Shown here one piece after another: positions 37,394-37,647 of a stretch of DNA of 61,828 nucleotides (positions are counted from its first letter, which is position 1; every line of letters starts with the position of its first letter). Below the pieces are notes generated by a model that was not told where the DNA came from, searched no databases, and saw only the letters and a list, made by a program, of their open reading frames with translations. The DNA comes from Chara braunii (lineage: Eukaryota; Plantae; Charophyceae), in the NCBI GenBank assembly GCA_003427395.1, contig BFEA01000004.1:3459160-3520987 (forward strand). Direction: 5' to 3'. The position numbers and the translations under genes were made by a program.

Positions 37394-37447
37394 AGTCGTT
37401 TCACTGAGTCGAACTAGAGTCGAACTCACGCAGGGTCTTCTTTCCCC
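37394..37447 (-). other. 25S/28S rRNA-derived fragment (domain V, H73/H74 region) in 3' LTR
   Basis: Minus strand GGGGAAAGAAGACCCTGCGTGAGTTCGACTCTAGTTCGACTCAGTGAAACGACT vs plant LSU GGGGAAAGAAGACCCTGTTGAGCTTGACTCTAGTCCGACTTTGTGAAATGACT. Confidence 0.8.
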
Positions 37448-37506
37448 TGCCCGCGGCCCCGTACCTGGCGCAGGGAGGGTGCCAGGTTCAGGCTCCCTCC
37501 TTGAGT

Positions 37507-37647
37507 GGAGGAGCCAACATCGAAGGATGAAAAAACAACTCCGCTATGAACGCTTGGCTGCCACGGTTAGTTATCCGCTGGATAACTTACCTGTTACCCC
37601 TAGCTTCAAGTCCTGAAACGCTAAAGGATCGATTGGCTAAGCTCTCA
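37507..37647 (-). other. 25S/28S rRNA-derived fragment (domain V, PTC/H89 region) in 3' LTR
   Basis: Minus strand ...CCAATCGATCCTTTAG...GAAGCTAG...GGATAACT...GGCAGCCAAGCGTTCATAGCG...ATCCTTCGATGTTGGCTC matches the eukaryotic LSU. Confidence 0.85.

What the first reader, a model, noticed from the sequence alone, without database searches (positions are those of the whole stretch)
37394..37647. LTRs carry 25S rRNA peptidyl-transferase-region fragments in permuted order
Seen: both LTRs of A (also 53228-53481) hold two diverged LSU domain V segments in the element's sense orientation. The downstream segment (GATCCTTTAG...GGATAAC...GATGTCGGCTC) comes first, then a ~60-nt linker, then the segment that is upstream in rRNA (GGGGAAAGAAGACCCTG...). 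Known: in the ribosome these two segments pair (H74) and line the PTC; Cassandra TRIMs carry 5S rRNA in their LTRs. I know of no LSU-PTC equivalent. AAGTTACCACAGGGATAACT has become the self-hairpin AGTTATCC-AGC-GGATAACT. Presence in both LTRs shows the cargo replicated with the element. Inference: rRNA mimicry or template-switch capture from co-packaged RNA.
Basis: partly seen in the sequence, partly recalled or inferred. Interest (0 to 1): 0.75.

Follow-up and report, generated by a model that had tools for sequence, protein, structure and literature searches.

The report
Swapped ribosomal RNA pieces in LTRs
Both long terminal repeats of a decayed jumping gene carry two pieces of the host's own large ribosomal RNA in swapped order; they were likely picked up once, were copied along with one branch of the element, and are predicted to fold into their own hairpins rather than the ribosome's catalytic shape.

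Summary
A 19-kb LTR element (35756-54923, minus strand, TG...CA, 4-bp TSD, PBS) splits an L1 RT. Both LTRs carry a 142-nt and a 54-nt piece of eukaryotic LSU domain V in reversed order around a 59-nt linker that shows no rRNA homology; 21 of 21 rDNA loci holding both pieces have the opposite order. Helix 88 matches host rRNA reads, so the donor is the host lineage's 25S. A 12-bp direct repeat found nowhere else in the window bounds the 282-bp insert. Other genomic copies exist, one 85% identical with the same layout and no gaps. 'Mimicry' is not supported: H74 pairing between the pieces is not predicted (about 18 kcal/mol worse), and H89 is lost. The hairpins are already latent in natural rRNA, only modestly strengthened (p about 0.01-0.08), and the cassette is no more conserved than its flank. 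Best reading: one template-switch capture, then hitch-hiking in U3 of one LTR subfamily (0.6). An exapted 3'-UTR structure stays open (0.27). I found no LSU-in-LTR case in print. New variant of a known kind; interest 0.45.

The parts
35756..54923 (-). LTR retrotransposon 'A', non-autonomous or heavily decayed, inserted into an L1-type LINE RT
   Evidence: TG...CA ends and TSD ACGA at 54924-54927 and 35752-35755; RVT_1 profile 24-75 on one side and 72-186 on the other
50051..54923 (-). 5' LTR, 4873 bp
   Evidence: self-BLAST blocks; ends in TCGACA and is followed by the PBS
35756..47391 (-). 3' LTR, split by nested inserts (about 38258-45283 and 45955-47213) and lacking the 1.5 kb of 51052-52588; the 47391 start is approximate
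50033..50048 (-). primer binding site, 2 nt after the 5' LTR; tRNA-Asp/Athila-like by recall only
   Evidence: 1 match, 0.02 expected by chance; tRNA type not tested
47392..50032 (-). internal region, about 2.6 kb, with no recognisable gag or pol
   Evidence: no Pfam hit; homolog searches empty or spurious
53341..53482 (-). LSU piece 1 in the 5' LTR (H87, H88, H74 3' strand, central-loop GAUAAC, H89, H90 5' strand; helix names recalled)
   Evidence: 53434-53467 shows no difference from host rRNA reads
53282..53340 (-). 59-nt GC-rich linker of unknown origin; can close the H90 5' strand and form a second hairpin
   Evidence: depth far below rDNA depth
53228..53281 (-). LSU piece 2 in the 5' LTR (loop before H74, H74 5' strand, H75 5' strand; helix names recalled)
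37507..37648 (-). LSU piece 1 in the 3' LTR
37448..37506 (-). linker in the 3' LTR
37394..37447 (-). LSU piece 2 in the 3' LTR
53491..53502 (-). 12-bp direct repeat upstream of the 282-bp insert (3' LTR copy 37657-37668, 1 mismatch)
   Evidence: the only 4 matches in the window flank the two cassettes; null 5 of 2818 flank pairs
53197..53208 (-). 12-bp direct repeat downstream of the insert (3' LTR copy 37363-37374)
52737..52749 (-). TATA-like box shared by both LTRs (also 36904-36916), about 480 bp downstream of the cassette; would place the cassette in U3
   Evidence: the transcription start was not mapped

Best explanation
A 282-bp chimeric insert (two pieces of host 25S rRNA domain V in swapped order plus a 59-nt linker) sits in both LTRs of a decayed LTR retrotransposon; it was likely captured once when a reverse transcriptase hopped onto rRNA fragments and back, and likely spread as a passenger of one LTR subfamily. 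Shown: identity and order of the pieces, H88 identical to host rRNA reads, the flanking 12-bp repeat, further copies with the same layout. Inferred steps: (1) RT leaves the element RNA (or an L1 RT primes at a nick in the LTR), copies piece 2, then the linker template, then piece 1, and returns 12 nt upstream, which leaves the direct repeat; the two pieces may have arrived together because they pair through H74 in a degraded rRNA. (2) The insert lies in U3, so it would be transcribed once in the 3' UTR of genomic RNA and copied into both LTRs at each round. (3) Freed from the ribosome, the pieces are predicted to fold into hairpins already latent in rRNA; some were then perfected early, by template-switch mutation or weak selection for a stable RNA, with drift afterwards.
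For: The flanking 12-mer occurs only around the cassettes; 5 of 2818 random flank pairs share 12 nt or more. No difference from host rRNA reads at 53434-53467, where the rDNA loci compared differ. Linker and neighbouring U3 bins have depth of about 50-500 against thousands for the LTR's 3' part and about 7 for single contigs, so the cassette marks a minority subfamily (depth is only a rough guide). Cassette divergence between the LTRs (8 of 255) does not differ from the rest of its 1-kb block (42 of 756, p 0.14). A third copy appears more diverged in the cassette (35 of 178, inferred by subtraction) than in the upstream flank (5 of 74; p 0.013). Natural rRNA pieces already fold into much the same hairpins (6 of 6 for piece 1; 17 of 17 for piece 2). 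The ribosomal fold is not kept. Only trace RNA lies on the linker (depth 1.7-3 in one run, 0 in the other; 12-13% of each run read). Template switching can perfect stems without selection (PMC8794818, abstract).
Against: Changes from rRNA are not random. They cluster (11 of 19 in 36 nt, p 0.025; two untouched stretches, p 0.012). Piece 1 folds more stably than all 31 distinct natural versions, and more than random mutants at p 0.03-0.10 (0.05-0.09 with H88 masked). Piece 2 gives p 0.02-0.16; combined 0.009-0.08. Of 11 changes that look older than the third copy, 7 add or strengthen a pair and none weakens one, against 2 of 8 later ones (p 0.17). The third copy has 0 gaps over 295 nt, and common linker variants fall at unpaired or bulged positions. 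One new pair is U-G in the third copy, which templated copying would not make. The linker's source is unknown, so the capture path is not shown.
Confidence: 0.6

Rival explanations
1. Exapted structural module: after capture the cassette was selected as a compact, non-ribosomal hairpin cluster in the 3' UTR of the genomic RNA, where it would aid stability, dimerisation or packaging by a helper element's Gag.
For: The 346-nt region folds at z -3.7 and -3.4. Piece 1 is the lowest-z of 48 windows across the LTR (-3.86). Pair-creating changes are clustered and mostly old. The layout is kept without gaps at 85% identity.
Against: Neighbouring non-rRNA windows fold nearly as well (z -3.71, -3.53). 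The stability gain is borderline. There is no excess sequence conservation. Most LTR relatives seem to lack a close cassette. The third copy appears to break one pair of the 8-bp hairpin (53419).
Confidence: 0.27
2. The insert is a copy of an independent rRNA-derived SINE-like retroposon (SINE28-like) that landed in an ancestral LTR, the route proposed for small-RNA-bearing TRIMs.
For: The 12-bp direct repeat has the length of a LINE-type TSD (SINE28 TSDs are 5-28 bp, PMC4994717 passages). L1 relics are in the window. Piece 2 holds a B-box-like 9-mer (seen; consensus recalled).
Against: There is no poly(A) or simple-repeat tail at either end. Cassette depth resembles that of adjacent U3, and the long contigs run on into LTR flank. 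The pieces are internal, not the 3' end of LSU.
Confidence: 0.08
3. PTC mimic: the permuted construct refolds a minimal peptidyl-transferase loop, closed by H74, with the linker standing in for H90-H93, and acts as a decoy for ribosomal proteins or ribosome-targeting factors.
For: The order H74-3', H89, H90-5', two linker hairpins, H74-5' is the topology that a circular permutation of the central loop would need (sequence plus recalled rRNA structure). The central-loop motifs are intact in the 5' LTR.
Against: Expected inter-strand H74 pairs are 0.0000 and 0.0002, forcing a duplex costs about 18 kcal/mol, and native H89 has 0.05 pairs or fewer. The linker is no more like H90-3'/H93 than shuffles are. 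The P-loop and A-loop helices fall outside both pieces (recalled positions).
Confidence: 0.05

Closest known systems
Cassandra, Ajax and Helenus TRIMs ('TRIMp3'; PMC10886601 passages; PMC10946416 section 11 read whole)
   Same: Non-autonomous LTR elements with a host structural-RNA sequence in both LTRs, copied with the element.
   Different: Those are 0.3-1.3 kb elements whose 5S or tRNA piece supplies a Pol III promoter. This LTR alone is 4.9 kb, the cargo is two internal LSU pieces in swapped order, and no promoter role is evident.
SINE28 (PMC4994717 passages) and MeloSINE (PMC4844689, one figure legend)
   Same: Mobile elements carrying LSU rRNA sequence, derived from the host lineage's own rRNA.
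   Different: Those are non-LTR elements built on the 3' portion of 28S (SINE28 with a tail and TSDs; MeloSINE with an RTE-derived tail). Here the pieces are internal domain V, permuted, tailless and inside an LTR.
[quoted passage not shown]
   Same: Internal 28S fragments of 50-482 nt, mostly sense, ascribed to RNA ligation or template switching.
   Different: Those are individual insertions at L1 5' ends. Here two pieces in swapped order were amplified with an LTR subfamily.
Plant non-chromovirus Ty3/gypsy elements (Phygy, OTA; PMC6317226 passages)
   Same: LTRs up to about 5 kb with tandem repeats; a TSD (ACGA) that fits the NCGN preference reported for Phygy; a TGG-type tRNA PBS.
   Different: No gag-pol is recognisable here, so the lineage cannot be assigned; Phygy elements are described as short and almost wholly coding.

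Membership tests
LTR retrotransposon | two direct terminal repeats with TG...CA ends | tested here: met
   the 3' LTR start is approximate
LTR retrotransposon | target site duplication | tested here: met
   ACGA on both sides; the LINE RT motif rejoins across the site
LTR retrotransposon | PBS after the 5' LTR | tested here: met
   TGG-initial site 2 nt after the LTR; tRNA type recalled, not tested
LTR retrotransposon | polypurine tract before the 3' LTR | tested here: inconclusive
   only a short G-rich stretch at about 47392-47403
Ty3/gypsy non-chromovirus (Phygy/OTA) | RT-RH-INT domains grouping with the lineage | tested here: inconclusive
   no gag or pol domain found among 215 frames scanned from 31.5 kb onward (rescan of 4); only TSD, PBS and LTR size fit
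Cassandra / TRIMp3 | 5S- or tRNA-derived Pol III promoter in the LTR | tested here: not met
   no 5S or tRNA hit in Rfam scans; ARAGORN found 0 genes
Cassandra / TRIMp3 | miniature size (about 0.3-1.3 kb) | tested here: not met
   5' LTR is 4873 bp
SINE28-type retroposon | 3'-terminal LSU fragment with an A-rich or simple tail | tested here: not met
   model positions 2399-2450 and 2755-2895 of 3401; no tail
SINE28-type retroposon | dispersed copies with their own TSDs | not testable with these tools
   no whole genome is held; one TSD-like repeat seen
PTC structural mimic | H74 and H89 formed, central loop open | tested here: not met
   (thermodynamic prediction only)

The most novel reading that the evidence does not exclude
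An LTR retrotransposon lineage has domesticated the core of the ribosome's peptidyl-transferase region: captured as a base-paired two-strand rRNA fragment, joined in permuted order, and reshaped by selection into a new non-ribosomal hairpin module that works in the 3' UTR of its genomic RNA. It would be the first LSU-derived functional module in an LTR.
Probability: 0.25. Interest if true: 0.72.

Novelty: new variant of a known kind. Interest (0 to 1): 0.45.

Why it matters
rDNA pieces inside mobile elements are known mostly as 5S promoters; the 2024 review's table lists no LSU piece in an LTR element (PMC10946416, section 11). Even as a passenger, this is a dated natural experiment: the most conserved RNA in the cell, released from ribosomal constraint and amplified in an LTR subfamily. 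With all copies in hand one could separate template-switch perfection of hairpins from selection on RNA structure. The swapped order would also record how paired rRNA fragments get written into DNA.

Tried and rejected
Whole-genome search: no genome is held. The permuted pattern in metagenome contigs gave 1 hit, L049, a chance match in bacterial-looking DNA with no LSU hit; viral contigs gave 0 for three patterns. Protein searches gave no lineage: 0 of 66 and 0 of 101 candidates passed, and the one phmmer hit is a repetitive unnamed protein, rejected. My idea that the linker is remodelled H90-3'/H93 was rejected (p 0.34-0.74); extending rRNA homology into the flanks was not significant either (p 0.07-0.99, 5 loci). 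The linker had no meaningful hit in plasmids. The idea that both 12-mers are hairpin loops of one motif was dropped, since the upstream copy is partly in a stem. The 100-nt tandem repeats looked tRNA-like by eye but had no tRNA hit. LTR-to-LTR divergence is no test of selection: the whole 1-kb block is 4.9% diverged against 10-12% elsewhere. The sigma-70 scan is irrelevant to a eukaryote. No RNA holder was listed, which is no evidence either way. Ten literature searches listed no LTR element with 25S/28S PTC pieces; the library lacks most subscription papers and Repbase, and no supplements were read.

Full report
1. The observation. The two stretches lie at 53228-53482 and 37394-37648 on the minus strand. 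Rfam finds LSU_rRNA_eukarya at both in a whole-window scan (E 8e-7 and 1e-4). Scanned alone, piece 1 scores 84.8 bits and piece 2 scores 19.1 bits (E 0.004). Piece 1 (142 nt) matches all 48 at least in part. In the 21 that also hold piece 2 (54 nt), piece 2 is always upstream, about 300 nt before piece 1. The element therefore has them reversed, joined by 59 nt. The gapped pattern has 2 matches in the window and none in 100 shuffles.

2. The host element. Self-comparison shows five homologous blocks that make up two copies of one long repeat. The element runs 54923 to 35756, starts TG, ends CA, and is flanked by ACGA on both sides. It splits an L1-type RT whose Pfam halves (profile 24-75 and 72-186) lie on either side. 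The 5' LTR is 4873 bp and is followed after 2 nt by a PBS. The 3' LTR has two nested inserts and lacks 1.5 kb. No gag or pol was recognised in 215 frames scanned from 31.5 kb onward, so the element is non-autonomous or heavily decayed. LTRs near 5 kb occur in non-chromovirus Gypsy elements, and the TSD fits the NCGN preference of Phygy (PMC6317226, passages); this is a resemblance, not an assignment. Earlier unreviewed notes call the genome a stonewort alga; I could not test that. A TATA-like box shared by both LTRs lies about 480 bp downstream of the cassette, which would put the cassette in U3; the start site was not mapped.

3. Origin of the insert. RNA reads of the same species label show no difference from the element over 53434-53467 (helix 88, name recalled), where the three rDNA loci compared differ, so the donor is the host lineage's own 25S. 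I count 19 differences from rRNA over piece 1: 13 from the laid host reads and contigs, and 6 from other species' loci where host reads gave no cover. A 12-mer lies on both sides of each cassette and nowhere else in the window; 5 of 2818 random flank pairs share as much. It bounds 282 bp. It could be the overlap left by an RT leaving and rejoining its template, or a LINE-type TSD; there is no tail. The linker does not match the rRNA that follows piece 1 (p 0.34-0.74 in the 12 of 33 eligible loci tested), and its depth is far below rDNA depth. Its source is unknown.

4. Copies. No assembly is held, so I used two lays of public runs. The LTR's 3' part has depth in the thousands, most U3 bins about 100-2000, linker bins 49-277, and single contigs about 7. 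That suggests very roughly 10-30 LTR copies with the linker at 84% identity or more. The tool warns that depth is no copy number and that human-like reads are removed, which affects rRNA-like stretches. One contig (depth 7.4) spans 53265-53559 with 43 differences and no gaps in both DNA runs, and several others join linker to piece 1 at about 85-89% (3 of the 8 longest pieces shown per run). The two DNA runs are one sample, possibly the window's own. RNA: linker depth was 1.7-3 on the sense side in one run and 0 in the other, with 12-13% of each run read, and no read fitted whole. Outside this organism the permuted pattern found one chance hit in metagenomes and none in viral contigs.

5. Structure. 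The 346-nt region folds well (z -3.7 and -3.4), but not like the ribosome. Each H74 strand sits in its own hairpin (7.95 of 8 and about 6 of 6 pairs), pairs between the strands total 0.0002 or fewer, forcing a duplex costs about 18 kcal/mol, and native H89 gives way to a helix with the 5' end of piece 1. The linker hairpins depend on the stretch folded: present, weak. Natural rRNA cut to the same lengths gives much the same fold (6 of 6 loci; 17 of 17 for piece 2), so the hairpins were latent.

6. Selection or drift. For selection: piece 1 is more stable than all 31 distinct natural versions and than random mutants at p 0.03-0.10 (4 loci); with H88 masked p is 0.05-0.09, and piece 2 gives 0.02-0.16; combined 0.009-0.08. 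Changes cluster (p 0.025) and spare two stretches (p 0.012). In the element's own fold six or seven pairs improve on the natural loci, a count biased by using that fold. Reading the distance-from-end column, the third copy keeps the rRNA letter at 8 of 19 sites and lacks it at 11. Seven of those 11 older changes strengthen a pair and none weakens one, against 2 of 8 later ones (p 0.17); at six of the 11 sites a private letter could be hidden. Against selection: neighbouring LTR windows fold as well; the cassette is no more alike between LTRs than the rest of its block (8 of 255 vs 42 of 756, p 0.14); the third copy appears more diverged in the cassette than in the flank (35 of 178 by subtraction vs 5 of 74, p 0.013); and template-switch mutation can perfect stems unaided (PMC8794818, abstract). 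These nulls use other species' rRNA as stand-ins and one mutation model.

7. Comparison. Cassandra, Ajax and Helenus carry 5S or tRNA promoters in small LTR elements (PMC10886601, passages). SINE28 and MeloSINE carry the 3' part of 28S in non-LTR elements (PMC4994717, passages; PMC4844689, one legend). Human 28S/L1 chimeras hold internal sense fragments (bioRxiv 10.1101/2025.02.02.635956, passages). The review's table of rDNA in TEs has no LSU-in-LTR entry (PMC10946416, section 11). PMC5786205 was seen in passages only. Ten searches listed no such case. Earlier unchecked notes describe other elements spreading 28S pieces or permuted host pieces as passengers, which suggests that such capture recurs but is not independent evidence.

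8. Verdict. Real, and apparently undescribed in this combination. Most likely a single capture that hitch-hiked (0.6), possibly an exapted RNA structure (0.27), less likely a SINE-like insert (0.08) or a PTC mimic (0.05). New variant of a known kind; interest 0.45.

Noticed in passing
window 54007-54051 (-): U6 snRNA 3'-half-like stretch (weak: 12.7 bits, E 0.6) inside a 113-bp piece of the 5' LTR that has short inverted ends; the 3' LTR has a 7-kb nested insert at the same place.
   Followed up: partly
window 6636-6736, 31522-31638, 28103-28189 (-): Three diverged U6 copies (61.5, 51.5, 34.8 bits); one abuts a 120-bp palindromic repeat family (2043-2166, 2581-2704, 7986-8109, 10548-10671, 31639-31762).
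   Followed up: no
window 15325-15380 (+), 13903-13953 (+), related repeat near 29695-29862: Type III hammerhead ribozyme matches (45.8 and 24.2 bits) in a small repeat family.
   Followed up: no
window 54148-54347 and 45342-45545: Two tandem 100-nt units in each LTR with A-box- and B-box-like motifs by eye and 11-bp inverted ends; no tRNA hit.
   Followed up: partly
window 52589-53600 vs 36756-37766: A 1-kb block is 4.9% diverged between the LTRs against 10-12% elsewhere (p 2e-6 even without the cassette); gene conversion or lower methylation-driven decay are untested explanations.
   Followed up: partly
window 38258-45283 (-): 7-kb nested LTR-like insert in the 3' LTR, its 3' end related to the host LTR's, with several repeats of a GTTCCATAAG-like motif at about 40580-41240.
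   Followed up: no
window 33657-35755 and 54924-56346 (-): Decayed L1-type LINE (RVT_1, zf-RVT), split inside its RT by the element.
   Followed up: yes
L001-L048: Eukaryotic LSU rDNA contigs contaminate many prokaryotic species-representative assemblies (48 shown, about 200 estimated).
   Followed up: no
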